DNA from: a virus
Lineage: Duplodnaviria > Heunggongvirae > Uroviricota > Caudoviricetes
Virus record (IMG/VR): IMGVR_UViG_3300001687_000010
Reading direction: 5' to 3' (one strand)
Length of the DNA: 64,000 bases
The position numbers were made by a program, and so were the translations under genes. Below the pieces are notes generated by a model. That model was not told the DNA's origin, did no database searches, and saw only the letters and a program-made list of their open reading frames with translations. Of this stretch, positions 1-61,430 are shown one piece after another (position 1 is the first letter of the stretch; each line of letters starts with the position of its first letter).

Positions 1-226
1 GGTCTTTCATTTCTTTTTGTAATGATTTTACATACTTTAATACTTGTTGCTTGGTCATCGGCTTGCGTTTTTTTGACTTAGAAAACTGGTCGTACCCCGC
101 CAGACCGTGCTGAGTTTTTTCTGTGGTTACTATATACTTGCCGGGTTTATCCTCTCGTGCCGTAACCCTCACTCCGCTAATATATATATCTCCATACTGT
201 TCAGTTAGGTATCTTTTTAGTCTCAT
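1..226 (-). CDS. Putative internal head protein (partial, runs off the window start)
   Basis: Not in the ORF track. Manual translation from the ATG at 226 gives MRLKRYLTEQYGDIYISG..., open to position 1. The N-terminus is identical to that of ORF 1594-2136. Confidence 0.7.
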   Translation of the reverse strand, partial: MRLKRYLTEQYGDIYISGVRVTAREDKPGKYIVTTEKTQHGLAGYDQFSKSKKRKPMTKQQVLKYVKSLQKEMKD

Positions 227-241
227 TTATTTTCTCTTACC

Positions 242-1117
242 TCATTTAAAAAACTCCGATGCGTTTTCAAAGTCACCGTTTTTATCTAATTTTAATTCTA
301 CGTTGACGTTTATATCCGGTTCACTTATTCCCAAGCCGGGGAGATATAAACGTCCGCCGGTTTTTTTATCAGCCAGAAAGAATCCCTTACCTTGCCGTTT
401 AATTTCGTTAGCAGTAGTCTCGTCTGTCCAACTCCATGAGAGACCGCTATTAAGCGACCTCTTTGGCCCTTGGGATGCTATAATAGGATGTTTTATTTTG
501 TAACATTCAACTCTCCATACTCTGGGTGAATGGGTTACATGGTATGTTAATTGTTTTGCGAATAATAAATATTTACTTTTTACAAATTTATCTGACCATA
601 CGGTTGCGCCTATCTTTCCATCGGTTGAATATATTATCATTACTAAACCATCTTTGGCTTGTAGCTTCGGGGACTTTCTAAAATCAGATTCTTTAAACGG
701 CACGTTTAGGCCGGACTCCAGTCTAAGGTTTTTTATATATCCAACAAACTCTGATGTATCATGGTGCCTGCCTAATTTTTTCTTAGTATATAATAATATA
801 TGAACCATCTCATGAAGCATTACAGCTTTTATATCATCTAATTGTAAATCGAAGGTTGTGGACATTGTTATTTTGAGGGAATCCATTTTTATTTCAGCGG
901 CGGCATGAACGGGTATTTCTTCTAAGTATTTTTGCATTAATGAACGGTCTGCTTTACCTCCAGTATATCTTACCGTAGCCAGACCTATTGCACCTTTTAA
1001 TCTCCCACTCCAAGCCAATTTAATATTGGGCAATGCTCCGCCAAAATAATTCCGATTTAATTCGGCATAAAGAGGTTTTAATTTTATATCACCTTCTGCC
1101 CCTTCCCGTATATACAT
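242..1117 (-). CDS. SprT-like zinc metalloprotease
   Basis: LYAELNRNYFGGALP N-terminal pattern, HEMVH (HExxH) and a downstream HH, typical of the SprT family. SD GAGGT. Confidence 0.75.
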   Translation of the reverse strand: MYIREGAEGDIKLKPLYAELNRNYFGGALPNIKLAWSGRLKGAIGLATVRYTGGKADRSLMQKYLEEIPVHAAAEIKMDSLKITMSTTFDLQLDDIKAVMLHEMVHILLYTKKKLGRHHDTSEFVGYIKNLRLESGLNVPFKESDFRKSPKLQAKDGLVMIIYSTDGKIGATVWSDKFVKSKYLLFAKQLTYHVTHSPRVWRVECYKIKHPIIASQGPKRSLNSGLSWSWTDETTANEIKRQGKGFFLADKKTGGRLYLPGLGISEPDINVNVELKLDKNGDFENASEFFK

Positions 1118-1131
1118 TTATACCTCTTCTA

Positions 1132-1386
1132 TTATTTAACCTTTTTTCCATTTTTGAATTTTGCTATTATGTCATTTTCTTTATAATTACCTGTACCAGC
1201 TTCAACAGTATGCACATCACCGCCGAATTTTCCAGTTCCAGAGTCAACAAATACAACTAAAGTTTCTTTGTCAACAAATACAACTAAAGTTTCTTTTACT
1301 CTTTTACTTGTCGCTTTAGCAAATTCCAATTCCTGTTCGATTTGTTCTTTGGTGCTTTTTTCATTTATATATTCACTAAATTTCAT
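1132..1386 (-). CDS. Putative internal head protein with an in-frame 9-aa duplication
   Basis: N-terminus MKFSEYINE; KETLVVFVD occurs twice. Confidence 0.65.
   Translation of the reverse strand: MKFSEYINEKSTKEQIEQELEFAKATSKRVKETLVVFVDKETLVVFVDSGTGKFGGDVHTVEAGTGNYKENDIIAKFKNGKKVK
1243..1296. repeat. Perfect 27-bp tandem duplication
   Basis: gtcaacaaatacaactaaagtttcttt x2 (1243-1269, 1270-1296). Confidence 0.95.
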
Positions 1387-1396
1387 TTTCTATCCC

Positions 1397-1597
1397 CTAT
1401 ACCTCTTCTAAATTATGAACGTGACCGGCAGCGGGTTGAACAAGCCACTGGAATATATTATGAACGTGGTCGTCTGCGCCTTTAGTTCCAATGGTTTTTC
1501 CGTCCCCGTCTTCATTGACCATAGCGGTATGTATATGGCCGGTCTCGTCTGATTTTGTTGTTAGTCCTATTTTGCTTTCGATTAGATATTGTCTCAT
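1397..1597 (-). CDS. Small His-rich putative head protein
   Basis: MRQYLIE N-terminus; GHIH, DHVH and GHVH repeats suggest metal binding. Confidence 0.6.
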   Translation of the reverse strand: MRQYLIESKIGLTTKSDETGHIHTAMVNEDGDGKTIGTKGADDHVHNIFQWLVQPAAGHVHNLEEV

Positions 1598-2136
1598 AAC
1601 TTTTTAAATTTTGCGGCTGATATCGGTTTGCCGTCCACTCGTATTCTGGCAGGGAACTGATTAAACAGAGTCCGCCTTGCTGATACATTAATAATCATTT
1701 GCTGTTCTATATAAACATCATGGCCATCTTTTTTGCCGGATATTCTGAAACTGGTGCCGGTTAGATTATGAATTTCCACGTTATCAAGTAAACCGACCTT
1801 CTCATCAATTTTATCCGCCCATGCTTTTAGGGTATCTTCGGCATAGACTTCTGCGCCTTTATCTATTTTGTTTTTATCAAGTTGTCTGGCCTCACCACTC
1901 CACATTATATTTGATTTAGTCGGTGCCAGATATGGTTTAATCATTTTATCAAAAACATTTACCCATTTGCGGTTATTATAAACGTGTTTCAATTCGGGCC
2001 CTATATCGGCAACCATATCTCTAAATACTCTATCGATATTATCTTTAAAGCGTTTAATTAGTTCCGGTTTATAAGGCTTGAGCATATTAATAATATCTCG
2101 CTCGCTCATTTCTGTTAGGTATCGTTTTAATCGCAT
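1594..2136 (-). CDS. Putative internal head protein
   Basis: MRLKRYLTE N-terminus; AATAAATA late-promoter variant just upstream. Confidence 0.7.
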   Translation of the reverse strand: MRLKRYLTEMSERDIINMLKPYKPELIKRFKDNIDRVFRDMVADIGPELKHVYNNRKWVNVFDKMIKPYLAPTKSNIMWSGEARQLDKNKIDKGAEVYAEDTLKAWADKIDEKVGLLDNVEIHNLTGTSFRISGKKDGHDVYIEQQMIINVSARRTLFNQFPARIRVDGKPISAAKFKKL

Positions 2137-15139: not shown

Positions 15140-15289
15140 TTACTTCGCTAAGTCTTTAATGGAACCATGACCGATATACTTTTTTTGCGCCTTTTTATCA
15201 GGGTCACCCCAGTATTGACGGTTTTTATCCTTATCCTTCTTTTTGGTTTTCTCGCCTAAAAGTTGTTCGATTCTTTCAACGATATCCAT
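15140..15289 (-). CDS. 49-aa basic putative internal head protein
   Basis: Not in the track. MDIVERIEQLLGEKTKKKDK..., SD GGGAG, TATAAATA at 15321-15328. Confidence 0.65.
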   Translation of the reverse strand: MDIVERIEQLLGEKTKKKDKDKNRQYWGDPDKKAQKKYIGHGSIKDLAK

Positions 15290-16388: not shown

Positions 16389-16595
16389 ATGAAATTTAGA
16401 CAATACATACTCGGCCCCGGTTTGGACGAGGCTTCTTATCGGGGCAATATTGGGTTTGAGGAGATGACCCAATTCTACAAAAAAGCCAACCCTAAACAAA
16501 TCAAGCAAATGGAGAAAATTCTGGATGCTTCAGATTGGGACGCATTCGTCCAGCTCATCCAGCAAGTGCTTGGTACACGCCTAAAAAAATCTTAA
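16389..16595 (+). CDS. Putative internal head protein
   Basis: MKFRQYIL...LDE N-terminus; SD GAGG. Confidence 0.6.
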   Translation: MKFRQYILGPGLDEASYRGNIGFEEMTQFYKKANPKQIKQMEKILDASDWDAFVQLIQQVLGTRLKKS

Positions 16596-38909: not shown

Positions 38910-39251
38910 TTATATATAATTTAACGCATCTTTAAGTGCCGTATGCAAACCCTTTACTCCCCATTTTTGTCCCATATCAATATACAAAAAATCCCGAGGG
39001 TTTTGTAACAAAGAACCTAAAGACCAGCCAGATGGTACAACACTATATTTATTAAAACCACCTTTATCAAAAGATTGTTCAATATACAAAAGCCATTTGC
39101 CTTTTTCTTGGACAATTACTGCTCTATAAGGTTGTTTTAAATCTTGGCCATTGGAAGTACCAACGATTTGCGCTTTCTTTAAAACAATCCCGTTAGGCAA
39201 AGCCGGTGTTCCTTCAGTTAAATAATTATCTATCCTATCTAAAGTTTTCAT
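38910..39251 (-). CDS. Putative internal head protein
   Basis: Start moved to MKTLDRIDNYLTE (SD AAGGAG). Confidence 0.6.
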   Translation of the reverse strand: MKTLDRIDNYLTEGTPALPNGIVLKKAQIVGTSNGQDLKQPYRAVIVQEKGKWLLYIEQSFDKGGFNKYSVVPSGWSLGSLLQNPRDFLYIDMGQKWGVKGLHTALKDALNYI

Positions 39252-40087: not shown

Positions 40088-40863
40088 TATCTAATTTTCC
40101 TTAAATAATGCGTAATTATTTTATACGCTTCTTTATCAGGTATCATCTTTGATAAAAATTTAGTACGTTCTTTTTTAACTAACCTTGAAATATTAGCAAT
40201 TGAAATACCCGTTTGTTGTGCTATATGTAATACCAAATCAGCATCAGTGCTTGCCTCATCGTTATGTAAAAGCGAAGCAATAAATCTTACTTTATCCCCT
40301 GTAAATTTTGCCTCACCTAATATAACTTTAGCCTGTCCGACCTGTTTATCAAGTTCTTTAAGTTTATCCATTAATTTTTTATTCTTTTTAATCTCTTTGG
40401 ATATAGGGTCGTCCCCGAGTTTAACCTTTTCATCAATTTTATAAAAACTAATTGCGCCTACTTTTTCTGCGGTAAATCCGATTCCACGTGCTTTTAGATT
40501 TTTACGCAATTGCGCCATCATTTTTTTATCCCATCCAGATAAATTAATAGCCAATTTCTTTTTATCCCAATATGTATTAGCCGCTTCAGCTCCGGTTTCT
40601 GAGTATTGGCTTAATTTGCCTTTCGGTCCACCCCAGACATCGGCTATTGCGGCCTTTACATCTTTGGTAACTTGACTTTCATTCATTTTTTTTGCTGCTT
40701 TTTGAAGTAACCGTACCGCATTCGGTCCTCTAATTGATTGTAAAGTATCCAACGCTTTTTGATATTCTTGTTTAGATTTAGCGTTTAATACTGCCATATA
40801 TAAAGGGTCATTGCCAAATTCTTTACGCATTTGTTGTTCATTTAAGTATTTTTTAAATCTCAT
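40087..40863 (-). CDS. Putative internal head protein (several x-x-E sites)
   Basis: MRFKKYLNE; internal MNE, IDE and LGE sites suggest a processed polyprotein. Confidence 0.6.
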   Translation of the reverse strand: MRFKKYLNEQQMRKEFGNDPLYMAVLNAKSKQEYQKALDTLQSIRGPNAVRLLQKAAKKMNESQVTKDVKAAIADVWGGPKGKLSQYSETGAEAANTYWDKKKLAINLSGWDKKMMAQLRKNLKARGIGFTAEKVGAISFYKIDEKVKLGDDPISKEIKKNKKLMDKLKELDKQVGQAKVILGEAKFTGDKVRFIASLLHNDEASTDADLVLHIAQQTGISIANISRLVKKERTKFLSKMIPDKEAYKIITHYLRKIR

Positions 40864-41153
40864 TTCTTTCCCCATTCGGCAATATAACTTTTATCCATGC
40901 CTTGATTTAATCTAATTCCTGCCCATACAAGCTCATGTTCCGGTCCTAAATGGTCGTTTACTCCTCCGGGTTTAATTGAGTCATTATACATTTTAACCCA
41001 CTTGGCTAAGTTTTGCTCTGTGGGCTTTCCTGCTTGTTTACTTTCCCAAGCAGATGGAGTGCTTGACCATTTCGGGCTTTTTAATTTAACATCGACAACG
41101 TATTTAGGGGTCGTTGACCTACCCTCGTTTAGATATTTTTCAAAAGTCTTCAT
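40860..41153 (-). CDS. Putative internal head protein
   Basis: MKTFEKYLNE. Confidence 0.65.
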   Translation of the reverse strand: MKTFEKYLNEGRSTTPKYVVDVKLKSPKWSSTPSAWESKQAGKPTEQNLAKWVKMYNDSIKPGGVNDHLGPEHELVWAGIRLNQGMDKSYIAEWGKK

Positions 41154-44430: not shown

Positions 44431-44442
44431 TGGTTCACTCCT

Positions 44443-45952: not shown

Positions 45953-45963
45953 CTCCTAAAAAG

Positions 45964-46000: not shown

Positions 46001-46028
46001 TTATGAGACCAGTTGGACTGGTAGGTAT

Positions 46029-48606: not shown

Positions 48607-48715
48607 TACATCCTCCTCAACGCCCCACATCTATCTAAAAGTTCACACAAGGTTTAGAGTTCGGGGCTTCAAAGATATTTATAATTATACCACAAAATTT
48701 ATGGATTGTAAATGA

Positions 48716-48781: not shown

Positions 48782-50005
48782 TTACGCAGGAAGGTTAGTT
48801 AGGCTTACTTTCTGGTAATAATTCTTGCTACCAAACAAGTGGTCGTGAATTCCGTAACGGCTCATCAATCCAAGTGCAGGATTAAAAGAATCCTCAAAGG
48901 TCGCACGAGAAGCAAGTAGCTGAATATACGGCAAATAAATAACGCCAGTATCATACTCACTTGGGCCTTTGTAACCAACGATAAATTGGTTGCTACTCTG
49001 GAAGGTATCACGGTATACGCTTAGTCTACCGTCAAGGGAACCGATTCGAGAAATTCCAACAGCAGAAGTATTAACATTTCCGGGTACCGGCGCAATTGTA
49101 AATGCCGCCATTGACTCAAATATCGCTACTGAGTACGGGTCACCTACAATCCAGTTACCTGAACCACGTCTTGTGTTAATAGCAATCTGTTGTGCTCTGC
49201 GGAGAATGTAGTGATATAGTTCTCTATATCTTTCCATTTCCCATCTACCACCGGGTACGCCTGTTCCTGAAGCGGCTTGGTAATTCCAAGTCAAGTCATA
49301 GTTAGCACCACCGGCTACGCAGACTGCGTCAATTTTCTCGATGAGTTCACGGTCAATTTCTGCCGTAATTTCATAAGCAAGAATATCCATCATTTCCTCT
49401 TCGAGGTTAAGACCGTGCATTGCTTTAAGGTCTTGGGCTACCTCAAGAGACCAACGGCTTCTTAACTTACGGGTTTTGGCTTCAATCTGTGCCTTCTCAA
49501 CGGTCATATTAATTTCATTAATATGTGTTCCGGCACCGACACCTAAACCAACGTCATTACCAACACCTGCGCCTGCTTTTGAACCCAACGCTTCACCGGC
49601 TGATGTTACATAAGAACCTGAGTAAGAGCTATCGATTGTATTGTAACCAAGTTCAGTGGTATTTGCGGTATAATTACCGGCAGTCGTACCAGCTCTAAAA
49701 CGAAGAGCAAATGCCAATCCAACAGGACCGGTCATCGGCTGAACACCTACTAAATCGTGAGCTACTAATTCAGGGAATGTACGTCTAACCATCGGTACTG
49801 CGATTTTGTGAAAAATACCTGAAGTCGGATAACCGGCTTTCGTACCGAATGAGTCATTAGGATAGGCATAGGTTGTGGCTTCTTGCAACCAGTTATGCTG
49901 ATTCTCAAGCATAATTGCGGTTGACTTGCGGACATTGGTATTACGGATTTCATTGCCCTCATTAAGAACCTCTTCCCACTTTTGCATTAGTTCTCTAATG
50001 TCCAT
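48782..50005 (-). CDS. Major capsid protein, T4 gp23-like
   Basis: VRRTFPELVAHDLVGVQPMTGPVGLAFALR, AKTRKLRSRWSLEVAQDLKAMHG, EIDRE and GYKGPSEYD motifs. Confidence 0.97.
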   Translation of the reverse strand: MDIRELMQKWEEVLNEGNEIRNTNVRKSTAIMLENQHNWLQEATTYAYPNDSFGTKAGYPTSGIFHKIAVPMVRRTFPELVAHDLVGVQPMTGPVGLAFALRFRAGTTAGNYTANTTELGYNTIDSSYSGSYVTSAGEALGSKAGAGVGNDVGLGVGAGTHINEINMTVEKAQIEAKTRKLRSRWSLEVAQDLKAMHGLNLEEEMMDILAYEITAEIDRELIEKIDAVCVAGGANYDLTWNYQAASGTGVPGGRWEMERYRELYHYILRRAQQIAINTRRGSGNWIVGDPYSVAIFESMAAFTIAPVPGNVNTSAVGISRIGSLDGRLSVYRDTFQSSNQFIVGYKGPSEYDTGVIYLPYIQLLASRATFEDSFNPALGLMSRYGIHDHLFGSKNYYQKVSLTNLPA

Positions 50006-50055: not shown

Positions 50056-50904
50056 TTATGAAATTTTGTTTTCTTTTAAAACTTGTAAGTACCGCTTTGT
50101 GTACTCAGCGAAGGGGCTTGTATCTTCTTTCATATCGCCCTTCTTCTTTTTGTCGCCGTCCTCATCTTCTTCATCTTCTTCATCGAGTTCGGCCTTTCCT
50201 TTCCCTTCTTCAACTTGGTCTTCGTTGTTTTTCGGGTCAGACTTTTTCTTTTGCTTTTCGATTACGTCCTCTCCTTCATCATCACCAACGTTTACGGGTT
50301 CAAACCGTTCACTATCGGCAATAACTTGGAATTTACGGTCAATCTCAGCTTTGTCAGTTACGCCACTTAGAATATCAAAAATTTGTGCTTTTTGACTTTC
50401 TGTTAGCCCCTGACATTTCTTGTGCAAATAAAGTTCTGCAGCCATTTCCTGTGCATCGCCTTTAAGCTCAAGGTTTTCTTGGATTGTCTTGTCCATCTGC
50501 TTGCGGAGACCTACGATTTCTTCTTTAGCCTCTTTAAGTAGACTCTTAACTTCTTCATCAAGCAATCCTTGGTCAACGCTCAAGCGCACTTTAAATTGCT
50601 CAATAAGGTCATGATATAGCTCGCCTTTTTTCGCATACTCCAAAACCTCTTCTGGAATCTTAAGCTCTTCTTCAAAAACTCCGTCTACGAAGTTAGAAAA
50701 TTTGCCGGTCATATCGTTTTTATACTCGTCAAATTTTAGCTCATATTCTTCCACGAGCTGTTCCTTCGCTTCTTCCAGTTTGGATTCGAGTAACTCTTTG
50801 GCCTTAACATCAATGACGGTATTGAGCTTCTCGGTTAAGTCAGCCTGTACTGCTTCATCAAGCTTGTCTGCACCAAGTAGTTCCAAGATTTTGGTCAAGT
50901 CCAT
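50056..50904 (-). CDS. Prohead scaffold / core protein, T4 gp22-like
   Basis: Acidic coiled-coil between gp21 and gp23; C-terminal YTKRYL; TATAAATA at 50944-50951. Confidence 0.85.
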   Translation of the reverse strand: MDLTKILELLGADKLDEAVQADLTEKLNTVIDVKAKELLESKLEEAKEQLVEEYELKFDEYKNDMTGKFSNFVDGVFEEELKIPEEVLEYAKKGELYHDLIEQFKVRLSVDQGLLDEEVKSLLKEAKEEIVGLRKQMDKTIQENLELKGDAQEMAAELYLHKKCQGLTESQKAQIFDILSGVTDKAEIDRKFQVIADSERFEPVNVGDDEGEDVIEKQKKKSDPKNNEDQVEEGKGKAELDEEDEEDEDGDKKKKGDMKEDTSPFAEYTKRYLQVLKENKIS

Positions 50905-51060: not shown

Positions 51061-51312
51061 TTATATATACTTTCCTAAAATCATATTGTTAAAAAATTGT
51101 AAGGATTTTTTAGCATTAACAAGGTCTTTAGAAAGCATCCCTGTTTCGCCATTAAATGAATTCATTTCTCTTACTAAATTTGATATATGGTCACCAACAC
51201 CATAATAAGCATCTCTTAATCTTGTAAAATCTCTACTATCCATATTTTTAAATGCTTCTCTTATATCTTTATCAGTCTCAGACGCCTCGGTTAAATATTT
51301 TTCAAAGTTCAT
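51061..51312 (-). CDS. Putative internal head protein
   Basis: MNFEKYLTE. Confidence 0.65.
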   Translation of the reverse strand: MNFEKYLTEASETDKDIREAFKNMDSRDFTRLRDAYYGVGDHISNLVREMNSFNGETGMLSKDLVNAKKSLQFFNNMILGKYI

Positions 51313-51320: not shown

Positions 51321-51785
51321 CTATGCATAACTGCTTGAAAATTTAGGCTTACCGTCCCATTTAGAACACCATCCATGACCGGACGGGGAGTTAATATAAA
51401 CTGAACCAGAGCTAATGCCCCATCTTTTTGTAATAGCGGAACCTTTAAATTTCCCTTTTAGTGGAGTTGTCTGGCCACTCATAAATCCGGTTTCTTTATA
51501 TTTACCGTTTATGGGTCTAATTTTAACGGATTTACCACTACCCGTAATTTGTACGACCTGCCACCAGTCTATATTAGTCTGGTCATAACCCCAAGAATCG
51601 TAAAATATATCCCCGACAGCTATCGGTACTTCAGCAGGCTCTTGTTTTACTCCGGGCTTTTTTTGGTCTCCTTGTGTTCTGGTAGTTGTAAACCCTTTAA
51701 AGTCCTTACCGACTTTACCTCTACTTCTAAGAAGGTCTATATCGGATTGGCTTAGTTTTTCATCTATCCTTTCTAATATATCCAT
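51321..51785 (-). CDS. Putative internal head protein (conserved phage family)
   Basis: MDILERIDEKL; VGDIFYDSWGYDQTNIDWWQVV. Confidence 0.65.
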   Translation of the reverse strand: MDILERIDEKLSQSDIDLLRSRGKVGKDFKGFTTTRTQGDQKKPGVKQEPAEVPIAVGDIFYDSWGYDQTNIDWWQVVQITGSGKSVKIRPINGKYKETGFMSGQTTPLKGKFKGSAITKRWGISSGSVYINSPSGHGWCSKWDGKPKFSSSYA

Positions 51786-51786: not shown

Positions 51787-52035
51787 TTAAGTATCCATAT
51801 CCATTATAATATACCCACGGGCCTGAGCATCATGCCTTACATCCCCGACCATATCAGTTCCGGCCGGAAATTCATGACTATTAGACCAGAGCACCTCACC
51901 GTCATTGTTTACATAAATCATCGGGCTTCGTTTATTCCAAAAATTCATCATTTCATATGACGTGCCTGCGCCACTGGACTCGTCTAATTTTTCTTTTTTA
52001 GGTGTTAGGTATTTTTCTATTAGGTCCGTTCTCAT
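51787..52035 (-). CDS. Putative internal head protein
   Basis: LIEKYLTP..LDE. Confidence 0.55.
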   Translation of the reverse strand: MRTDLIEKYLTPKKEKLDESSGAGTSYEMMNFWNKRSPMIYVNNDGEVLWSNSHEFPAGTDMVGDVRHDAQARGYIIMDMDT

Positions 52036-52057: not shown

Positions 52058-52681
52058 TTAGTTTTTCTCCGTTAATTGTAACCATTTAACAATCGTACTG
52101 GTCGGTCTTTTTAGAATTCCCTGTAAACGGTCAAGAGTATCTGCCATCTCCTGCTCTTCCGGGGTCATGCCCATAGCCATATTAGGAAGTACCCAATCAC
52201 GTCCTTCATAAACACCGTTTACCCATGACGGATGGTTACTTGGGTCTGTTACCATATCCCAAGTAATAAGATTAAAGTCCTCATTTACCGTACCATCTTC
52301 GGCCACTGAGCCAAGTCCACGACTTGAGATTCCCATAGAACCTTCTTTAATAAGGGTTTTAGCAATCTCGCCATGAGGTGTATCGAGTACCTTAGATTTA
52401 CCGTATAGGTCATTGCCTCTCCATTCCAACATAGTAGTTAGAATAGCAATTCTCTCAGGGTTGACTTCCGGGTTCGGTGGATGACCAAGTTCACCCCATA
52501 GGGTTTTCTTTTCAATCTTTTCCTGAACCTTACCCACTTCCCTTTCAAGCACCGACTTTTTATATACACGGTTGTTATTGTTTTTGCGTTCCGCAGAACT
52601 GTAGATACCTACGATATGAACCCCTTTGCTTTTGGACTCAACGAGTTCAAAATCATAACTGGTTTCTGTTATAAGTTTCAT
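52058..52681 (-). CDS. Prohead core protease, T4 gp21-like
   Basis: MKLITE, NNNNRVY, GELGHP, GISSRGLGS and WDMVTDPS motifs. Confidence 0.95.
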   Translation of the reverse strand: MKLITETSYDFELVESKSKGVHIVGIYSSAERKNNNNRVYKKSVLEREVGKVQEKIEKKTLWGELGHPPNPEVNPERIAILTTMLEWRGNDLYGKSKVLDTPHGEIAKTLIKEGSMGISSRGLGSVAEDGTVNEDFNLITWDMVTDPSNHPSWVNGVYEGRDWVLPNMAMGMTPEEQEMADTLDRLQGILKRPTSTIVKWLQLTEKN

Positions 52682-52701: not shown

Positions 52702-53049
52702 TTACTTAAACATTGCTTTGGACGTATTATAAATCCATTTTGCTTGGTCGGGTGAAAAGCTACCATTTTTCTTAAAATAATCTCTTAACCCTCTGGCCAT
52801 TTTAAGAATTTCATTTTTTGGGTCGGGTTTATCACCAGATTCCAATGCGCCGAGAATAGCATCTAAACTCTTTTTAGCATCTTCAGTGGAACCCTCGTCT
52901 ACCTTTTTCTCTGCTAAATCGATTCCGGTCTTATCTTTAATCCAATCTACTTTAGCGTCCGTAATCTCCTTGCGTAAAATTTCTTGAGCATCGGTAAACT
53001 CATCGTTCTCAAAATGGTCTAATGCCTTTCTAATTCTTTCAGTATCCAT
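52702..53049 (-). CDS. Prohead core protein (gp67/gp68 position)
   Basis: Located between portal and protease; TATAAATA at 53082-53089. Confidence 0.55.
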   Translation of the reverse strand: MDTERIRKALDHFENDEFTDAQEILRKEITDAKVDWIKDKTGIDLAEKKVDEGSTEDAKKSLDAILGALESGDKPDPKNEILKMARGLRDYFKKNGSFSPDQAKWIYNTSKAMFK

Positions 53050-53073: not shown

Positions 53074-54705
53074 TCAATTATTATTTATATAAACTATATC
53101 TTCTTTTAATCTTCTATCAGACCAACTGCCGCCGCCACTATCGGCTTCTTCTTCGGCAAACCCAAGTTTTTTATCCTTTTTAAGCCCCTCCACGTTCTTC
53201 GTAATATCATCTTCCGTCCAGTGGAGCATTTCTTTCATCAGGTAATACTTGCTAATTTCAGGTCTGTCGGCTAATGCCTGATAGTTATTAAAACGGGATT
53301 CTAAGAAGTTTTGTTCCATTTGCTCCTTGTAATTTGAAGGCGGATTTAGCGTAACTTTTATTTTTTTAATATCTAAATCATACTGCTTCGCCAGTCCTTT
53401 AAACTCAAGGTGGATTAAGAACAGTCTTGTAAACTCCCGGCAGAATTTATTCTGCTGACGTTCTAAAAATTTAGCCCATTTGACCTCGTCCCGGCCAATC
53501 TCTCCGGTACTATTTCCGCCAAACATAATATCCGAAGAACTCTTATTCTGTTCAGCTTCAACTCGGCTCATTGGGTATTTTAGCGCACGGTACATCTTTC
53601 GGGCGAAATAATAAATATCATCTAATTCTGCGAATCCGGCCGGGTTACCTCCTACCGTTTCAATCTGGCTACCTCTGCCTTCCGATGATTGTGGAAGATA
53701 GAAGTTTTCAAGCATCGAGAAAATCTCCGGTTCGTGCGTTAATTGACCGCTTTTCGGGTCATATGTTTGTTTACGGGTTAGTTTATTTTTAATCTTTTCA
53801 ACGTATTTTAACGCCTTATCTCGTGGCATATTGCCCGTATCAATTCTAAATACGAGTCTTTCGGGGGCCCGAATAAGACGGTAAATAACGACTGAAGTTT
53901 CTAAAAGTTTTAATTGGTTATATGGAACCCTAACTTTTTCCAAATAACCGAATATTTCTTGTTTTGTCCGGCCATAAATGCCGTAATTTAAAAATCCTAT
54001 CTGTTCAGGGTTAAATAGCACTACATCATTGCGCTTTTCGGCCTCCTCAATTGACTTAGGTCGGCCGCTGTCCCTTTTTAAATACTGCATGAAAGCCAAA
54101 ATCTTGCCGGTTGTCGGGTCATATATATAATCCATAGACTCTGACGGCAGTTTCTTTATATTAACTATGCCTTTTTGTTTTTTCTTAGTATTGATTACAC
54201 GTTCGTAATAACATCTGCCGTCTATATAATAGGTACGGAACATATCCCACAAAATATCTAAAAAGTTATCGAGCTGTTTATAAAACAAGTCATTAAATTC
54301 TCGTGTTATATTGTTTACGATATTCTCGTTTTTAGCTAATTCGGGGTCAACTATTTCAAGATGGATATAGCGGTCATCGTGGTCAACCTGAGTGGATTCG
54401 TTAGTGGCGTCCTCAATTACATCGGCAATTTCTGTATAATCAGCCATCTGGCGATATTCCAAAATCTTATTAAACTCATTTTCGTACATTCTATTAATAT
54501 AACTATTATAGAACGTATTAAATGAGGCCAATGTAATATTCGCTACGCCCGGAATTGTGGCCAAATGCTCCCAGCCTTCACCTCTTTCAGCGTGTAGCAT
54601 ATCGTCTGTACGTTTGTCCCCGACTGCGGTAAAAGCAGGAATGGATTCGTGTACCATTTCTGTGCTTTCTTCTTCGGAGTTTTTAAACCAATCTAATACA
54701 CCCAT
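53074..54705 (-). CDS. Portal protein, T4 gp20-like
   Basis: YYIDGR, YNQLKLLETSVVIYRLIRAPERLVFRIDTGNMP, SMLENFYLP and GTEI-like GSQIETVGG motifs; TATAAATA at 54722-54729. Confidence 0.97.
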   Translation of the reverse strand: MGVLDWFKNSEEESTEMVHESIPAFTAVGDKRTDDMLHAERGEGWEHLATIPGVANITLASFNTFYNSYINRMYENEFNKILEYRQMADYTEIADVIEDATNESTQVDHDDRYIHLEIVDPELAKNENIVNNITREFNDLFYKQLDNFLDILWDMFRTYYIDGRCYYERVINTKKKQKGIVNIKKLPSESMDYIYDPTTGKILAFMQYLKRDSGRPKSIEEAEKRNDVVLFNPEQIGFLNYGIYGRTKQEIFGYLEKVRVPYNQLKLLETSVVIYRLIRAPERLVFRIDTGNMPRDKALKYVEKIKNKLTRKQTYDPKSGQLTHEPEIFSMLENFYLPQSSEGRGSQIETVGGNPAGFAELDDIYYFARKMYRALKYPMSRVEAEQNKSSSDIMFGGNSTGEIGRDEVKWAKFLERQQNKFCREFTRLFLIHLEFKGLAKQYDLDIKKIKVTLNPPSNYKEQMEQNFLESRFNNYQALADRPEISKYYLMKEMLHWTEDDITKNVEGLKKDKKLGFAEEEADSGGGSWSDRRLKEDIVYINNN

Positions 54706-54889: not shown

Positions 54890-55407
54890 CTATCCTTGCG
54901 TTTCGGGGCCTTTCCGGTTTTACGAATCCCTTTAGCCCGTTTAAAAACTCCCCTTAGTTTATTAATAATGGATGCTTTAACTTTCTTACTAAAATCTTTA
55001 GAATATGTGCTTACAACTGCTTTCTCAAAATCCTGAAATGGTATTTCAACGGGCTGTGATATATATGTTTTAGGACGGGTTAAATATCTGCGTACTGCGT
55101 GTTGTATATAAGGATATTTACGCTTTATTAATTCCCATCTAAATTTTGGATTATCTGTTTTGCTTAATATTTGAAGCCAATCTTTAGCGAATTTTTTACG
55201 GTGAGCACGTGGAATATAGGTAAAATTTATAGCTTGAAATAGACTCCAATTATGTTTAGAGACATCATGTACACCTTGTAAATGATACATTAATATAATA
55301 GTCGGTTTTGGGTCATTCTCCCATGCGGAATATTTGAACGAATACACGTGACCGCTTTTCCAGTTTACACCTTTAAATTTCTTTTTATAAACTCTGCGTA
55401 CTGCCAT
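54886..55407 (-). CDS. DNA end protector, T4 gp2-like
   Basis: GHVYSFKY..DPKP.II, AINFTYIP..R and HAVRRYL motifs; adjacent to gp4. Confidence 0.7.
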   Translation of the reverse strand: MAVRRVYKKKFKGVNWKSGHVYSFKYSAWENDPKPTIILMYHLQGVHDVSKHNWSLFQAINFTYIPRAHRKKFAKDWLQILSKTDNPKFRWELIKRKYPYIQHAVRRYLTRPKTYISQPVEIPFQDFEKAVVSTYSKDFSKKVKASIINKLRGVFKRAKGIRKTGKAPKRKDR

Positions 55408-55709
55408 TATCCATATCTTATATCAACTTTATTGACTCTGCCTATACTGTTATATTCAATTGTTGATTTTATTGTATCTTTAAGTTCCTTTTCACCTCGG
55501 ACGGCAAACCCACCAAATCTTACTTCCAATTCAAGTTCGATTTTGTTTTTACCTTCACGACCCATAGCGTTTAATCGTATTCCGTCTTTATGTGCAAATG
55601 CCTGTCCGATTTTACGGTCAATATCAGATGGAAGTTTCATTACAGGGCTAAAAGTTACCACTGCGAATATTAATTCTGTCCCCTCTTTTATATAATCCCT
55701 AAACTTCAT
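55407..55709 (-). CDS. Putative internal head protein
   Basis: MKFRDYIKE. Confidence 0.6.
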   Translation of the reverse strand: MKFRDYIKEGTELIFAVVTFSPVMKLPSDIDRKIGQAFAHKDGIRLNAMGREGKNKIELELEVRFGGFAVRGEKELKDTIKSTIEYNSIGRVNKVDIRYG

Positions 55710-56165: not shown

Positions 56166-56756
56166 TTATACTTTAATTCCGAATTCTAATTGAAAATCAT
56201 GTTTAGACATAGTCCACCACGGTTGCCAACCTTTACCTTTTCCTTTTTCAAAAACGGTTACAGTATCAGAAAATGCATCTTTCCACTCTGGACTTTCTGC
56301 TTCTGGATTTCCGATAACATACGCCTGAGTTGCATTTATGAGTTTAGCCCCTTTCGGCAATTTTCTTTCAGAATAATTACCTTTTAAAGCCTTCCCACGC
56401 TTTAATGCTTCCATCATACCGTCACCTTCGGTATATTCAGCATCCTCATCTTCACCATCTCCTGTATCATAAGTTAAATCAACATTCTCTGGTGGTTCTG
56501 TTTGACCGGCACCTCTGGCGACCTGAAGCAACTTTTCTCCGGCCAATGCACTAACGACAGGGTCATCATCAAGTTCACGATATAAAATCTCTTGCCAAAG
56601 AACATCATCAGTCGGGTTACGTCTAAATTTAGCAAGCAGTTCTTCATCCGTATAGTCCTGTGCTATATATTCGCTAACTTGTTTAGTGGAATCCGCTAAG
56701 TATAAATTAATCTTTTTTATAACGCTCATTTCAGTCTCCTTAATATTATTGTCCAA
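56166..56756 (-). CDS. Putative internal head protein
   Basis: MSVIKKINLYLAD internal start is likely. Confidence 0.5.
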   Translation of the reverse strand: MDNNIKETEMSVIKKINLYLADSTKQVSEYIAQDYTDEELLAKFRRNPTDDVLWQEILYRELDDDPVVSALAGEKLLQVARGAGQTEPPENVDLTYDTGDGEDEDAEYTEGDGMMEALKRGKALKGNYSERKLPKGAKLINATQAYVIGNPEAESPEWKDAFSDTVTVFEKGKGKGWQPWWTMSKHDFQLEFGIKV

Positions 56757-56796: not shown

Positions 56797-57276
56797 TCAC
56801 CATTTTTGTCCGGGTGGACATTTTTGGTCTTCTTCTTCTATTCCGGCATCCTTTTCCATCTTTTTTAAACGGTCATAATAGTCCGGTATTTCATCAAGGT
56901 GGTCTAAAGCAATTTCAGCCGCTAATTTTTTATCATCAACGTGCTCCATTTCAACTTTAGTTCCCATTTCAATTTGTTTTTTAATTTTATCAACCGATAT
57001 GCCATGTTTTTTGGCTATATCCTCTGGTGTTTTATTATCGGCTTTTCCGCCTTTTATTTTATCCTCGGATAGGTTTTTATCAACCTTAACGTACTGCGTT
57101 AATATAGCATATATATGCTCCTCAAATTTATGAGGGTCTATACCCATATCTTCCGCAAAATCATGAACAGCATCATCTGAAGGATTAGGGTTTTTCTTAA
57201 AAAACTCTTTAATTTTAGCTTTGATATCGCCGTCTTTTTTTGCTTCTTCTTCTCTTAAAAAATTTCTTAGTTTCAT
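56797..57276 (-). CDS. DUF5661-like protein with a head-targeting leader
   Basis: MKLRNFLREEE; MGTKVEMEH..LAAEIALDHLDEIPDYYDRL. Confidence 0.7.
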   Translation of the reverse strand: MKLRNFLREEEAKKDGDIKAKIKEFFKKNPNPSDDAVHDFAEDMGIDPHKFEEHIYAILTQYVKVDKNLSEDKIKGGKADNKTPEDIAKKHGISVDKIKKQIEMGTKVEMEHVDDKKLAAEIALDHLDEIPDYYDRLKKMEKDAGIEEEDQKCPPGQKW

Positions 57277-57503
57277 GTGTTATACTCCACTTTATGACGG
57301 CCAGTCGGGGTCTTACGTTGTTTAGCCATAATAGGTTCCATTCTATCTCGCACTTTACCATCGGCAGACCGTTCTAAATCTTTTTTCTTTTTCTTGACCT
57401 TTACCGGGTTTTGACGGTAATACTGGTCGGCATATATCTTTTTAGTTTTAGCCGTTTTTTTGGCTTTTATTTCCTCGTCTATTAACCAGTCTCTAAACTT
57501 CAT
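57273..57503 (-). CDS. Basic putative internal head protein
   Basis: MKFRDWLIDEE. Confidence 0.6.
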   Translation of the reverse strand: MKFRDWLIDEEIKAKKTAKTKKIYADQYYRQNPVKVKKKKKDLERSADGKVRDRMEPIMAKQRKTPTGRHKVEYNT

Positions 57504-58039
57504 TATTTACCTTTTCTTAAATCCATCCATTGCATTTTTCCAGCAAGATTCTCAGTTGTTCCATATTTTCTAAAATCAAAAAGGTCTTCAAGCTCTTTAT
57601 TCAATTTTTTAAAATTTACTTTTGAATTAAGTAAATTTAATACATCTTTTTCAGAACCATTTGCTAAACCCTCTCTATATTTAGGTGTAGTTTTTATAAA
57701 AACTTTCGGTAATGGACTTCTCATTTGCATATTGCTTATGGCCAATGGAGTTCTACTTTTATCTCTAAAACCGCCGCCCGCAAAGTCCCAGCGACCTTCA
57801 ATAACTTGAGTATTAGGATTAAAATCAAAAAATAATTCTAAAGAATGATTATTCCCATACCCATCTTTAGTCGGCCAGCCCACTTTAAAGAAATAATTAT
57901 CTTTATTTTGTAAAATTATCTGATTAAGTTTATCTGCCGCTCCTTCATCATCCATCATAAAATCACGGCCGCAATGTGGACAAACAATTTTTTGTGATGC
58001 TTCGTTTAAATGTTCATCAATTCTATCTAATATACTCAA
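57503..58039 (-). CDS. Putative internal head protein with a Zn knuckle
   Basis: MSILDRIDEHLNE; CPHC. Confidence 0.6.
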   Translation of the reverse strand: MSILDRIDEHLNEASQKIVCPHCGRDFMMDDEGAADKLNQIILQNKDNYFFKVGWPTKDGYGNNHSLELFFDFNPNTQVIEGRWDFAGGGFRDKSRTPLAISNMQMRSPLPKVFIKTTPKYREGLANGSEKDVLNLLNSKVNFKKLNKELEDLFDFRKYGTTENLAGKMQWMDLRKGK

Positions 58040-58239
58040 AGCAAACCTCCCTCTCGTATTTCCTCTATTTTCTCTTTAACTTCTGGCATAAGACCGGATA
58101 TAATCTCCTCTATCTTATCTTTAGGTGATTCGGTGATAAGCTCTAACGCCTCATCTAAGGTTAAAATTCGGTATTTAAGTTTTTCTTTAAAATCGACCTC
58201 ATATAGGTATCGATTTAATCTGGTAAGAGTCGTTACCAT
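58036..58239 (-). CDS. Hypothetical protein
   Basis: LNRYLYE. Confidence 0.5.
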   Translation of the reverse strand: MVTTLTRLNRYLYEVDFKEKLKYRILTLDEALELITESPKDKIEEIISGLMPEVKEKIEEIREGGLL

Positions 58240-59686: not shown

Positions 59687-59689
59687 GGA

Positions 59690-60112
59690 GTGGAAATGGA
59701 CGAAAAATTATTGGATTTATTTGGGGGTTTTTTAAATAAGACCGTGGAGTTACATACTGAATCTAAAGTAGCACTTGGTCTTATCAATAAAGATTTGGGA
59801 GAAATAAAGGAAACTTTAGGTAAAAGCGATAGAACGATTATGAGTTTACTTCATGGATTAGAGAAAAAAGGCGACTCCGACCAAGTAAAAAACTTTATTG
59901 AAACTTATACAAAACGAAATTATACAGATAACGAAATACAGGATTTAGGGCATCACGTTGAGCAAGTTAACGATATGCACAAATTTTCTATGAAATTAAA
60001 AGGCCGACTGGCTATAACAGCCGCTTTAATTGCGGCAATTATTGGTATAGCCACGCTCGGTGAAAAAATAGTAGCCCTATGGGAATTTTTAGTTAGTTTA
60101 GGAGGAGTATAA
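59690..60112 (+). CDS. Coiled-coil protein with a C-terminal TM helix (holin-like)
   Basis: LAITAALIAAIIGIATLG. Confidence 0.5.
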   Translation: MEMDEKLLDLFGGFLNKTVELHTESKVALGLINKDLGEIKETLGKSDRTIMSLLHGLEKKGDSDQVKNFIETYTKRNYTDNEIQDLGHHVEQVNDMHKFSMKLKGRLAITAALIAAIIGIATLGEKIVALWEFLVSLGGV

Positions 60113-60403
60113 ATGAAGGTTTTAGAAGAATACGTTAAAAAAGCAATGAAAGAATGTGAGCCGGTAAATGAAGAAAATCTGGGTATGAATGCTTCCGAAG
60201 CTCAAATGTGGGTTTTTTTAGAAAGAATGCCTATAAAAGAATTAGATTTTATTATTAAAGCGGTTAATAATAGTAAGAAAATTATAAAAACTAAAAAAAA
60301 TGGTTGGGGAGGTTTCAATGAGGTTATTCAGGAATTAAGTGTTATACAAAAAACCGCCGCATCATTAGAAAAAGAATTAATGAATTATAGACGTAGGAGT
60401 TAA
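60113..60403 (+). CDS. Hypothetical, possibly head-targeted
   Basis: MKVLEEYV..VNEE. Confidence 0.5.
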   Translation: MKVLEEYVKKAMKECEPVNEENLGMNASEAQMWVFLERMPIKELDFIIKAVNNSKKIIKTKKNGWGGFNEVIQELSVIQKTAASLEKELMNYRRRS

Positions 60404-60405
60404 TT

Positions 60406-61104
60406 ATGCCAGCACCACCACGAGCCGGTGAGGAAAAAGACGATTTTTTAGGCCGGTGTATACCATTTTACGTTAAAGAGGGCAAACCTCAAGACCAAGC
60501 AGTCGCTATTTGTTATAGTATGTGGAGACGCAAGGACGAAGAACGTATTATTAAAAAAATAGATATGTTCTTAGGAGAAACCGAAGGAGGAGCAACCACC
60601 ACCGGGGACGTGGCCATAAATACATCCGGTAAGGGATACCCAATAACCAGACGAATAAAGAAAAAGAAAAAGAAAACCGATGAAACCATTGTAACAGGCG
60701 GTCCTTATTTAAGCGGAACTTCAACTGCGGCCGGTTCTGGTCAAACCAGAGTGGTCGGGGATAAGGATAATGAAATAGACGCATTAAAAACTAAACCTAA
60801 CGCACGGTTTAATAAACTATTAGGAGCATATATTAGTGAAGCAAAATATATCCCAAATATGAAATATTGGCCGGATGATGCAGATGATATTATAGATTAT
60901 AAAGCGGCCGGTCGAGAGTTTGCCGAAATAGCCAGAATAGCAAAAGATTTGCCAACACAAATGAGAGATGTTACGGCTTCTATTGGATGGGCTATGGAAA
61001 AAAATGATAAAAGAAAGGTCGCATTATTAGTAAAAAGATTTCCTAATGATATTATAGGTGGAACGGGTACTTTAAATCGAATAATAAAATGGATTAAAAG
61101 TTAA
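60406..61104 (+). CDS. Head-associated protein with a P..GE.K.DF..RC...QA.AIC N-terminal motif
   Basis: This motif is common in phage head morphogenesis proteins; internal LGE and ISE sites. Confidence 0.6.
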   Translation: MPAPPRAGEEKDDFLGRCIPFYVKEGKPQDQAVAICYSMWRRKDEERIIKKIDMFLGETEGGATTTGDVAINTSGKGYPITRRIKKKKKKTDETIVTGGPYLSGTSTAAGSGQTRVVGDKDNEIDALKTKPNARFNKLLGAYISEAKYIPNMKYWPDDADDIIDYKAAGREFAEIARIAKDLPTQMRDVTASIGWAMEKNDKRKVALLVKRFPNDIIGGTGTLNRIIKWIKS

Positions 61105-61115
61105 AGGATAAAATT

Positions 61116-61430
61116 ATGAGTGAAAAATTTAGACAATATTTAACAGAATCAAAAGTGGCGAGAACCATTTTAGACCAGATACGGGCTTTAGATAAGTATG
61201 CTCTACCGGCTTGGGGAGCAAAGGATTTTGTAAGTTTTGATAAGGGTATCCAATTTGACGTCCGAGGTTCTAAACATCGTGGTCGGGTTATCGTGGGTTT
61301 AGATAAAGGCGACCTTTATAGTATTGAGATAGGCAAAATAAACAGAGCTAACGATTGGGTATCGATTAAGAAAAATAAAGGTATACAAGCGGCAAATTTA
61401 GTTACCGCAATAGACGAATTGGTAGGATAA
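61116..61430 (+). CDS. Putative internal head protein
   Basis: MSEKFRQYLTE; VARTILDQI. Confidence 0.65.
   Translation: MSEKFRQYLTESKVARTILDQIRALDKYALPAWGAKDFVSFDKGIQFDVRGSKHRGRVIVGLDKGDLYSIEIGKINRANDWVSIKKNKGIQAANLVTAIDELVG

What the first reader, a model, noticed from the sequence alone, without database searches (positions are those of the whole stretch)
1..61430. More than 20 small ORFs share a T4-like capsid-targeting propeptide, implying a very large injected-protein payload
Seen: two N-terminal classes. Class A is M(K/R/N)x(F/L)xx(Y/F/W)(L/I)x(E): ORFs ending at or starting from 226, 1386, 1597, 2136, 16389, 36373, 37598, 38567, 40863, 41153, 51312, 55709, 57276, 57503 and 61116. Class B is M(D/S/K)(I/T)(L/V)(E/D)RI(D/E)xxLxE: 15289, 39251, 51785 and 58039, with weaker cases at 1117, 52035, 56729, 58239, 59119 and 60113. 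They are interspersed among head/neck genes, often behind (T/A)ATAAATA. Established: T4 internal proteins carry a ~10-aa capsid targeting sequence (MKTYQEFIAE type) that gp21 cleaves after (L/I)-x-E, and IPI inhibits a host restriction enzyme. Inference: these are packaged, processed and ejected proteins, and so a rich pool of unknown anti-defence or host-takeover factors.
Basis: partly seen in the sequence, partly recalled or inferred. Interest (0 to 1): 0.75.

Follow-up and report, generated by a model that had tools for sequence, protein, structure and literature searches.

The report
T4-style capsid-targeting leaders, expanded set
An uncultured, distantly T4-like phage puts a short N-terminal tag, almost identical to the one phage T4 uses to load proteins into its head, on about 16-22 otherwise unrelated small proteins in this 64-kb window. 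They are therefore probably packed into the capsid and cut free by the head protease, though no virion has been tested.

Summary
Twelve ORFs start with a complete class A leader: Met, 0-3 residues, F/L-x-x-Y/F/W-L/I-x-E. Three more carry partial class A forms. Four ORFs start with a complete class B leader (M-x-I/L-L-x-R/K-I-D/N-x-x-L-x-E) and three with partial forms.

The strict core occurs 12 times in 900 N-terminal positions and once in 19,255 internal positions. The same pattern picks out only IPII and IPIII in 54 kb of T4. In 80 related contigs it hits 56 ORFs on the capsid-gene strand and 1 on the other.

The phage has T4-type portal, S77 prohead protease, scaffold and gp23-like capsid genes. 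Its capsid protein carries a conserved (F/Y/W)-L-x-E site where T4 gp23 is cut at FLTE.

The tagged proteins are unrelated to one another and mostly basic. They lie between core late genes, in slots whose content varies among relatives. Leaderless homologues exist, and class A and B leaders swap on the same mature protein.

Best reading (about 0.65): T4-type capsid targeting and protease-cleaved propeptides on an enlarged cargo set. Packaging, cleavage, ejection and any anti-defence role remain untested.

This scan has already noted the same leader in a neighbouring window of this genome and in other uncultured phages.

The parts
2..226 (-). Class A leader ORF (MRLKRYLTE). Its C-terminus runs off the window; the complete form is 213 aa in L084.
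1132..1386 (-). Class A leader ORF, 84 aa (MKFSEYINE). Contains a 9-aa tandem duplication that is absent from the L084 copy.
1397..1597 (-). Partial class A ORF, 66 aa (MRQYLIE); acidic mature part.
1594..2136 (-). Class A leader ORF, 180 aa (MRLKRYLTE), with AATAAATA 16 nt upstream.
15140..15289 (-). Class B leader ORF, 49 aa (MDIVERIEQLLGE). Very basic, with TATAAATA 39 nt upstream.
16389..16595 (+). Partial class A ORF, 68 aa (MKFRQYI...GLDE), in the presumed early block. Possibly a longer IPI-like leader.
36131..36373 (-). Partial class A ORF, 80 aa (MNTYEKYLPK, no Glu), between the gp15-like gene and the tube paralogue.
37206..37598 (-). Class A leader ORF, 130 aa (MSKFKEYLNE), with a CxxC...CxxC motif.
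38271..38567 (-). Class A leader ORF, 98 aa (MNTFEKYLTE).
38910..39251 (-). Class B leader ORF, 113 aa (MKTLDRIDNYLTE).
40087..40863 (-). Class A leader ORF, 258 aa (MRFKKYLNE). Net charge +21; an orphan. Its start overlaps the upstream stop (ATGA).
40860..41153 (-). Class A leader ORF, 97 aa (MKTFEKYLNE), directly after terL, with AATAAATA 37 nt upstream.
51061..51312 (-). Class A leader ORF, 83 aa (MNFEKYLTE), in the protease-scaffold slot.
51321..51785 (-). Partial class B ORF, 154 aa (MDILERIDEKLSQ), in the protease-scaffold slot.
51787..52035 (-). Partial leader ORF, 82 aa (MRTDLIEKYLTP), in the protease-scaffold slot. Homologues in 9 related loci.
55407..55709 (-). Class A leader ORF, 100 aa (MKFRDYIKE), inserted between the gp4-like and gp2-like genes.
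56166..56729 (-). Partial class B ORF, 187 aa (MSVIKKINLYLAD); acidic.
56797..57276 (-). Class A leader ORF, 159 aa (MKLRNFLRE), with a DUF5661 domain. Most homologues elsewhere lack the leader.
57273..57503 (-). Class A leader ORF, 76 aa (MKFRDWLIDE); pI 10.3.
57503..58039 (-). Class B leader ORF, 178 aa, TTG start (SILDRIDEHLNE). Relatives carry class B, class A or another leader on the same mature protein.
58036..58239 (-). Class B-like leader ORF, 67 aa (MVTTLTRLNRYLYE).
61116..61430 (+). Class A leader ORF, 104 aa (MSEKFRQYLTE). The model shows residues 1-11 detached from a compact domain; one orthologue carries a class B leader.
52058..52681 (-). Prohead protease (Peptidase_S77, gp21 family). 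H67 and S119/S120 are invariant, and so is I4-T5-E6 of the N-terminal MKLITE.
50056..50904 (-). T4-type scaffolding protein (gp22-like).
48782..50005 (-). Major capsid protein (Gp23 family). Conserved N-(F/Y/W)-L-x-E then A/T at residues 39-44, the predicted maturation site.
52702..53049 (-). Conserved 115-aa ORF between portal and protease, in the position of T4 gp67/gp68. Probable prohead core protein.
53074..54705 (-). Portal protein (gp20 family).

Best explanation
The window is part of an uncultured phage of the T4 superfamily, about 160 kb long. Roughly 16 robust and 6 partial small ORFs, unrelated in their main bodies, begin with a 9-13-residue leader. The leader comes in two interchangeable classes.

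The leader most likely works as the T4 capsid targeting sequence does:
1. The two hydrophobic/aromatic positions give the precursor affinity for the assembling scaffold core.
2. The protein is thereby enclosed in the prohead.
3. The gp21-family serine protease then cuts after the Glu of (Y/F/W)-(L/I)-x-E. This is the same kind of site at which it is predicted to trim the major capsid protein and its own N-terminus.
4. The mature, mostly basic protein stays with the packaged DNA and leaves with it at infection.

Shown here: the motif and its enrichment, its modularity, the presence and intactness of the protease/scaffold/capsid machinery, the matching capsid site, and the late-operon context.

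Inferred: binding to the core, cleavage, retention in the head, ejection, and any function after ejection.
For: (1) MKTFEKYLNE, MNTFEKYLTE and the other leaders closely resemble T4 IPII/IPIII MKTYQEFIAE and IPI MKTFKEF. T4 mutagenesis places targeting at residues 4 and 7 and processing at 8 and 10 (PMC9026906). Here those positions are aromatic, aromatic, L/I and E. Most copies are one residue shorter at the N-terminus.

(2) The pattern derived from this window finds only IPII and IPIII among 278 ORFs in 54 kb of T4. In 80 related contigs it finds 56 ORFs on the capsid-gene strand and 1 on the other. Class B gives 19 against 0.

(3) N-terminal enrichment: p = 7e-16.

(4) Gp23, T4_CASP scaffold, Peptidase_S77 and Portal_T4 are all present. 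The protease keeps invariant His and Ser, and an invariant N-terminal LITE like T4 gp21 LIE-9.

(5) The capsid protein has a conserved (F/Y/W)-L-x-E in 59 relatives, at the position homologous to T4 gp23 FLTE|A.

(6) The mature parts show no mutual similarity. The 51 tagged proteins in relatives fall into 39 families.

(7) Modularity. Most DUF5661 homologues begin directly with the domain, while the nearest ones have the leader fused in front. Two families carry class A in some members and class B in others, with the junction right after L-T-E.

(8) The AF2 model of 61116-61430 has residues 1-11 below pLDDT 50 and residues 12-104 as a confident domain.

(9) Codons vary synonymously and the upstream DNA is unrelated, so selection acts on the peptide.

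(10) The tagged genes sit between core late genes. The protease-scaffold slot holds 0-7 such ORFs in relatives, whose gap ranges from 65 to 3,644 bp.

(11) There are 0/33 complete leaders in the presumed early + block against 15/68 elsewhere, p = 0.002.

(12) 12 of 15 complete-leader proteins have mature pI of 9 or more, against a median of 5.5 for other small proteins. T-even internal proteins are likewise basic (PMC9026906).
Against: - There is no virion or proteome data; the phage is uncultured.
- Expression timing is inferred from strand, operon position and promoter-like hexamers only.
- Most leaders are one residue shorter than T4's.
- Several listed cases lack the Glu or the first hydrophobic residue, and these partial cases are mostly acidic.
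- One partial case lies in the presumed early block.
- A cultured distant relative with the same protease N-terminus (Pelagibacter phage HTVC008M) has no such tagged ORFs in its head module. The machinery therefore does not by itself imply the cargo.
- The mature parts give no functional hits, so an anti-defence role is a guess.
Confidence: 0.65

Rival explanations
1. The leader does direct proteins into the prohead and is cut. However, many tagged proteins are transient core or scaffold accessories, like T4 gp67, gp68 and gp22. They are degraded or expelled during maturation rather than kept and injected as effectors.
For: - Several tagged ORFs sit exactly where T4 keeps core genes, between portal/protease and scaffold.
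- Class B leaders resemble the N-termini of this phage's own capsid and scaffold proteins.
- The partial-motif members are acidic, like T4 gp67/gp68.
Against: - Most complete-leader proteins are basic and lack further aromatic-L-x-E sites in their mature part.
- They are highly variable between relatives, unlike essential core proteins.
- In T4, anything carrying the CTS is retained and delivered (PMC9026906).
Confidence: 0.15
2. The shared N-terminus has nothing to do with capsids. It might be a favoured translation-initiation region, a generic amphipathic helix, or a tag for another fate such as degradation, localisation or partner binding.
For: - The leader codons are A/T-rich, as is common at efficient starts.
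- No experimental link to virions exists.
- Tagged arrays also occur away from the head module, at 2-2136 and 61116, and beyond both window ends.
Against: - Synonymous codon variation combined with a strictly conserved aromatic-L-x-E points to peptide-level selection.
- The same site is conserved at the capsid protein's predicted maturation point.
- The pattern singles out the known CTS proteins in T4.
- The leader is almost absent from the presumed early block.
Confidence: 0.12
3. The ORFs are diverged paralogues or recombination cassettes, and their common 5' end is a DNA-level repeat used for gene shuffling. No function of the peptide is needed.
For: - Arrays of neighbouring ORFs share near-identical leaders, for example MRLKRYLTE six times in and just left of the window.
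- T-even internal-protein loci are known to be polymorphic.
Against: - No similarity beyond the leader.
- Codons differ between copies and the upstream DNA is unrelated.
- Leaderless homologues exist, and class A and B leaders swap within one family.
Confidence: 0.03

Closest known systems
Capsid targeting sequence (CTS) of phage T4 internal proteins IPII/IPIII (MKTYQEFIAE) and IPI (MKTFKEF...ITE), removed by prohead protease gp21 (Mullaney and Black 1996; reviewed in PMC9026906 and PMC3012670)
   Same: - N-terminal position and a length of 9-13 residues.
- Aromatic-x-x-aromatic-(L/I)-x-E pattern.
- Found on unrelated, polymorphic, mostly basic small proteins.
- The phage has gp20/21/22/23 homologues.
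- The site type matches the capsid protein's maturation site.
   Different: - At least 16 carriers in 64 kb, with more on both sides, against three IPs plus Alt in the whole T4 genome.
- Most leaders are one residue shorter.
- A second, interchangeable leader class exists.
- Carriers are inserted between core late genes, notably between protease and scaffold.
- No homology of the mature parts to T4 IPs.
- Nothing has been shown experimentally.
N-terminal propeptides of other gp21 substrates in T4: gp24 (MAKINELLRE), Alt (MELITELFDE), gp67, gp68 and the gp23 delta piece
   Same: - Class B leaders (M-x-I/L-L-x-R-I-D-x-x-L-x-E) have the same helical hydrophobic spacing, ending in L-x-E.
- They resemble this phage's own capsid and scaffold N-termini.
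   Different: Here the leader sits on variable orphan proteins rather than on conserved structural proteins.
Protease-processed ejection proteins of giant phages phiKZ, 201phi2-1 and SPN3US (PMC5694885, PMC7411985)
   Same: - Many head-internal proteins.
- Cut after Glu by a gp21-related protease.
- A large co-injected cargo.
   Different: - Those phages use (S/A/G)-x-E sites.
- Their propeptides are often more than 100 residues long.
- There is no common short decapeptide.

Membership tests
T4-type capsid targeting sequence / gp21-cleaved N-terminal propeptide | Short (10-19 aa) sequence at the extreme N-terminus | tested here: met
   The leader starts at Met 1 and ends at residue 9-13 in 16 ORFs. 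It is strongly enriched at N-termini.
T4-type capsid targeting sequence / gp21-cleaved N-terminal propeptide | Hydrophobic/aromatic residues at CTS positions 4 and 7 (targeting), and L/I at P3 with Glu at P1 (processing) | tested here: met
   12 class A ORFs have hydrophobic-x-x-Y/F/W-L/I-x-E/D. Two have the exact T4 register; the rest are shifted by one to two residues. The T4 determinants are taken from PMC9026906.
T4-type capsid targeting sequence / gp21-cleaved N-terminal propeptide | Phage encodes a gp21-family prohead protease and a gp22-type scaffolding core | tested here: met
   Peptidase_S77 at 1.3e-27 and T4_CASP at 1.9e-09. Catalytic His/Ser are invariant in 33 relatives.
T4-type capsid targeting sequence / gp21-cleaved N-terminal propeptide | Same site type at the major capsid protein's maturation cleavage | tested here: met
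   Conserved (F/Y/W)-L-x-E at residues 40-43 in 59 relatives, at the position that aligns with T4 gp23 FLTE|A. The cleavage itself is inferred.
T4-type capsid targeting sequence / gp21-cleaved N-terminal propeptide | Portable: carried by otherwise unrelated, polymorphic proteins | tested here: met
   No similarity among mature parts. 39 families in relatives. Leaderless homologues exist. Class A and B leaders swap within a family.
T4-type capsid targeting sequence / gp21-cleaved N-terminal propeptide | Carrier made while proheads assemble (late expression) | tested here: inconclusive
   The genes sit in operons headed by TATAAATA-preceded structural genes. Complete leaders are absent from the + block that carries TTTACA-N17-TATAAT sites. 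There are no transcript data.
T4-type capsid targeting sequence / gp21-cleaved N-terminal propeptide | Physical incorporation into proheads and cleavage after Glu | not testable with these tools
   Uncultured phage; no proteome.
T4-type capsid targeting sequence / gp21-cleaved N-terminal propeptide | Ejection into the host with the DNA | not testable with these tools
   Inferred only, by analogy with T4 CTS fusions (PMC9026906).
T4 internal proteins IPI/IPII/IPIII (homology of the mature protein) | Sequence similarity of the mature part to a T-even internal protein family | tested here: not met
   No PHROG or Pfam internal-protein family was hit by any of the 20 tagged ORFs scanned.

The most novel reading that the evidence does not exclude
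The decapeptide is an ancient, portable address label of the whole T4 superfamily. In this clade it loads dozens of different proteins per genome into the capsid. The two leader classes set different copy numbers or positions in the core. The label can then be used to mine metagenomes for first-response, co-injected anti-defence and takeover proteins that have no other recognisable feature.
Probability: 0.3. Interest if true: 0.75.

Novelty: new variant of a known kind. Interest (0 to 1): 0.55.

Why it matters
The T4 CTS is known from a few internal proteins of T-even phages. Here a phage whose capsid protein is only about 35% identical to cultured relatives keeps nearly the same tag. It uses the tag on many times more proteins, and relatives fill dedicated slots between core head genes with ever-different tagged ORFs.

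If the tag works as in T4, three things follow:
- It marks proteins that act in the first seconds of infection, where inhibitors of restriction and other innate defences are expected.
- It gives a simple sequence handle for finding such proteins in uncultured phages.
- It offers alternative leaders for T4-based protein delivery.

I found no paper that describes CTS-like leaders in uncultured phages. The scan itself has noted the pattern several times, including in this genome.

Tried and rejected
- Complex prediction of the protease (alignment A1) with residues 1-45 of ORF 40860-41153 returned 'no answer'. It says nothing either way.
- The AF2 model of the class B protein 57503-58039 with four sequences was poor (mean pLDDT 58) and was not used.
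- The Foldseek PDB search with the good model of 61116-61430 gave no match with E <= 0.001.
- ESM Atlas look-ups for 40087-40863 and 1594-2136 gave nothing usable.
- Pfam and PHROG scans of 20 tagged ORFs gave only DUF5661 and two PHROGs of unknown function.
- Megablast of the head region against cultured phages found nothing, and no whole genome is held for this window.
- The homologue search for 40087-40863 found only itself and one mosaic relative.
- I rejected 1117 (inside the SprT-like domain), 59119 and 60113 as leaders.
- I considered a DNA-level repeat and rejected it because codons vary and upstream sequences are unrelated.
- I looked for the tagged ORFs in the head module of Pelagibacter phage HTVC008M and found none.

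Full report
WHAT THE WINDOW IS

PHROG and Pfam scans identify a T4-type late module on the minus strand from about 29 to 59 kb. In transcription order it contains:
- gp4-like head closure protein (55706-56158)
- gp2-like DNA end protector (54886-55407)
- portal (53074-54705)
- a conserved 115-aa ORF in the place of T4 gp67/68 (52702-53049)
- Peptidase_S77 prohead protease (52058-52681)
- T4-type scaffold (50056-50904)
- Gp23-family capsid protein (48782-50005)
- small terminase (48124-48630)
- an inserted PrkA/DUF444/SpoVR operon (42811-48059)
- large terminase (41192-42745)
- head-tail adaptor (Ad2)-like protein, the T4 gp13/gp14 position (39263-40087)
- gp15-like sheath stabiliser (36373-37209)
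- a tube paralogue, then sheath, tube and baseplate hub

The capsid protein is only about 35% identical to cyanophage and Pelagibacter-phage gp23. Nothing similar exists at the DNA level among cultured phages. IMG/VR, however, holds at least 80 related contigs at 58-97% capsid identity.

The plus-strand block 14.3-29 kb carries accessory genes, including an ArdC-like and a Ro60-like gene. Its best sigma-70-like sites are all TTTACA-N17-TATAAT on the coding strand, so I treat it as the early block. That assignment is an inference.

THE OBSERVATION

- Twelve ORFs carry a complete class A leader.
- Three carry partial class A leaders.
- Four carry complete class B leaders.
- Three carry partial class B leaders.
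- Three 'weak' cases are not members.

Details are in the observation check. All tagged ORFs show coding codon bias in their own frame, and most have a ribosome-binding site. Gene calls on near-identical contigs from other samples give the same lengths.

The strict core F/L-[charged/polar]-[charged/polar]-Y/F/W-L/I-x-E/D is found 12 times in the first nine residues of 100 genes. It is found once in the remaining 19,255 positions (p = 7e-16).

The pattern was read off this window, so I tested it on independent DNA:
- In 54 kb of T4 (278 ORFs) it hits only IPII and IPIII.
- In the 80 related loci it hits 56 ORFs on the capsid-gene strand and one on the opposite strand.
- The class B pattern gives 19 against 0, and no hit in T4 or HTVC008M.

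WHAT THE LEADER IS

Sequences read from the T4 record give IPII/IPIII MKTYQEFIAE, IPI MKTFKEF...ITE, gp24 ...ELLRE, Alt ...ELFDE and gp23 ...SFLTE followed by AEIGG. The window's MKTFEKYLNE and MNTFEKYLTE share the T4 register. The other class A leaders lack one residue after Met, or have one or two extra residues before the core.

In T4, amber-suppression mutagenesis placed targeting at residues 4 and 7 and processing at residues 8 and 10 (PMC9026906). These are exactly the four conserved positions here.

The capsid proteins of 59 relatives all carry N-(F/Y/W)-L-x-E followed by A/T/G at residues about 39-44, in the segment that aligns with the T4 gp23 cleavage site. The protease of 33 relatives starts with an invariant L-I-T-E, like LIE-9 of T4 gp21, and keeps invariant His67 and Ser119/120.

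The leader therefore ends in the kind of site that this phage's own protease is expected to use. That expectation is an inference.

THE LEADER IS A PORTABLE PEPTIDE MODULE

- The mature parts have no detectable similarity to one another.
- The 51 distinct tagged proteins in relatives fall into 39 families.
- Codons for Tyr, Leu, Thr and Glu differ between copies and the upstream DNA is unrelated. Conservation therefore lies in the peptide, not in a DNA repeat.
- Of 120 homologues of the DUF5661 protein 56797-57276, most begin directly with the domain (MSKDKIKGGKADK...). The nearest ones have a class A leader fused in front, in two cases directly before the domain.
- In the family of 61116-61430, five members carry class A leaders and one carries a class B leader. 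All are followed by the same mature start.
- In the family of 57503-58039, members carry class B, class A or a third I-L-S-E leader.
- An AlphaFold model of 61116-61430 gives residues 1-11 pLDDT below 50 and residues 12-104 a confident compact domain. This places the junction right after the Glu.

CONTEXT

Tagged ORFs lie between core late genes:
- gp4 | tag | gp2
- protease | three tags | scaffold
- terL | two tags | head-tail adaptor gene
- several more down to the tube paralogue
- arrays at 56.2-58.2 kb and 0-2.1 kb

Core genes are found in 32-80 of the 80 related loci, while the tagged ORFs are found in 0-9. The protease-scaffold gap ranges from 65 to 3,644 bp in relatives. It holds 0-7 small ORFs, most of which start with class A, class B or other helical leaders. 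This behaviour resembles that of the polymorphic internal-protein loci of T-even phages (PMC3012670; PMC9026906).

TATAAATA sites precede portal, scaffold, terL, terS, sheath and tube by 24-53 nt. They directly precede only three tagged ORFs; the rest appear to be co-transcribed.

Complete leaders occur in 0 of 33 genes of the presumed early block and in 15 of 68 elsewhere (p = 0.002).

Twelve of 15 complete-leader proteins have a mature pI of at least 9. The median for other small proteins is 5.5, and the partial-motif ORFs are mostly acidic. This fits DNA-associated internal proteins and suggests that some partial cases are not true members.

The arrays continue outside the window:
- four more MRLKRY-type ORFs just to the left (L084);
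- five class A ORFs and one class B-like ORF within 8 kb to the right (L086).

MECHANISM AND LIMITS

The best reading is a T4-type capsid targeting and processing signal on an enlarged, fast-evolving cargo set. Binding to the core, cleavage, retention, ejection and function after ejection are all inferred.

The cargo proteins are orphans. Pfam, PHROGs, ESM Atlas and Foldseek gave nothing beyond DUF5661 and two zinc-ribbon-like motifs. The anti-defence idea therefore rests only on the T4 precedents IPI against GmrSD and IPIII in ECOR17.

A cultured far relative, HTVC008M, has the same protease N-terminus and an FLGE capsid site but no tagged ORFs in its head module. The expansion is therefore lineage-specific.

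COMPARISON AND NOVELTY

This is the known CTS mechanism, not a new one. Three things differ from T4:
- the scale: at least 16 in 64 kb and at least 25 counting the flanks, against three IPs plus Alt in T4;
- the two interchangeable leader classes;
- the use of slots between core head genes.

Full-text searches found no paper describing CTS-like leaders in uncultured phages.

Earlier notes of this scan report the same leader in a neighbouring window of this genome and similar tags in several uncultured jumbo phages. I treated these as leads only. My check of the right flank agrees with the neighbouring-window note.

Noticed in passing
window 42811-48059 (-): A complete PrkA (AAA+ kinase) / DUF444 (YeaH-like) / SpoVR operon sits between the small and large terminase genes. 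It is conserved in 43-57 of the 80 related contigs, so it is a stable feature of the clade and not a one-off insertion.
   Followed up: partly
window 22761-23126 (+): A 121-aa ORF starts with a prepilin-type N-terminus (G-F-T-L-I-E followed by a hydrophobic helix). This would be a phage-encoded type IV pilin or pseudopilin-like protein, in the accessory block.
   Followed up: no
window 17757-18647 (+) and 19725-21182 (+): An ArdC-like anti-restriction protein (phrog_7245, 5e-72) and a Ro60/TROVE-like RNA-binding protein (phrog_850, 1e-99) lie in the presumed early block.
   Followed up: no
window 5893-12744 (-): A 2,283-aa protein has no PHROG hit. Precomputed Pfam hits on the identical gene in L084 are Kelch/beta-propeller repeats. 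It is probably a tail fibre or baseplate protein.
   Followed up: no
window 242-1117 (-): A SprT-like metalloprotease (PF10263, 3e-10) without a leader sits in the middle of an array of MRLKRY-type leader ORFs.
   Followed up: partly
L085:4160-6200 (about 3-5 kb left of the window start): An EcoRI-like methylase gene is followed by a 369-aa gene with GmrSD_N and HNH domains, that is, a phage-borne type IV restriction-like enzyme. A further leader ORF (MRLLNYLNE) follows.
   Followed up: no
window 1132-1386 (-): This leader ORF has a 9-aa tandem duplication (KETLVVFVD twice). The duplication is missing from the otherwise identical copy in L084 (75 aa against 84 aa), showing micro-variation between samples.
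   Followed up: partly
window 58233-58523 (-): A 96-aa ORF starts MAETYQAFYINE, which echoes the T4 TYQEFIAE. It has a weak head-tail adaptor PHROG hit and homologues in 6 related loci.
   Followed up: no
window 35628-36131 (-) and 33164-33700 (-): There are two tail-tube family genes (both phrog_45), one on each side of the sheath gene.
   Followed up: no
window 59237-59686 (+): A 149-aa ORF has precomputed PAS-domain hits on the identical gene in L086. It is the first gene of a divergent plus-strand unit and lies behind a TATAAATA site.
   Followed up: no
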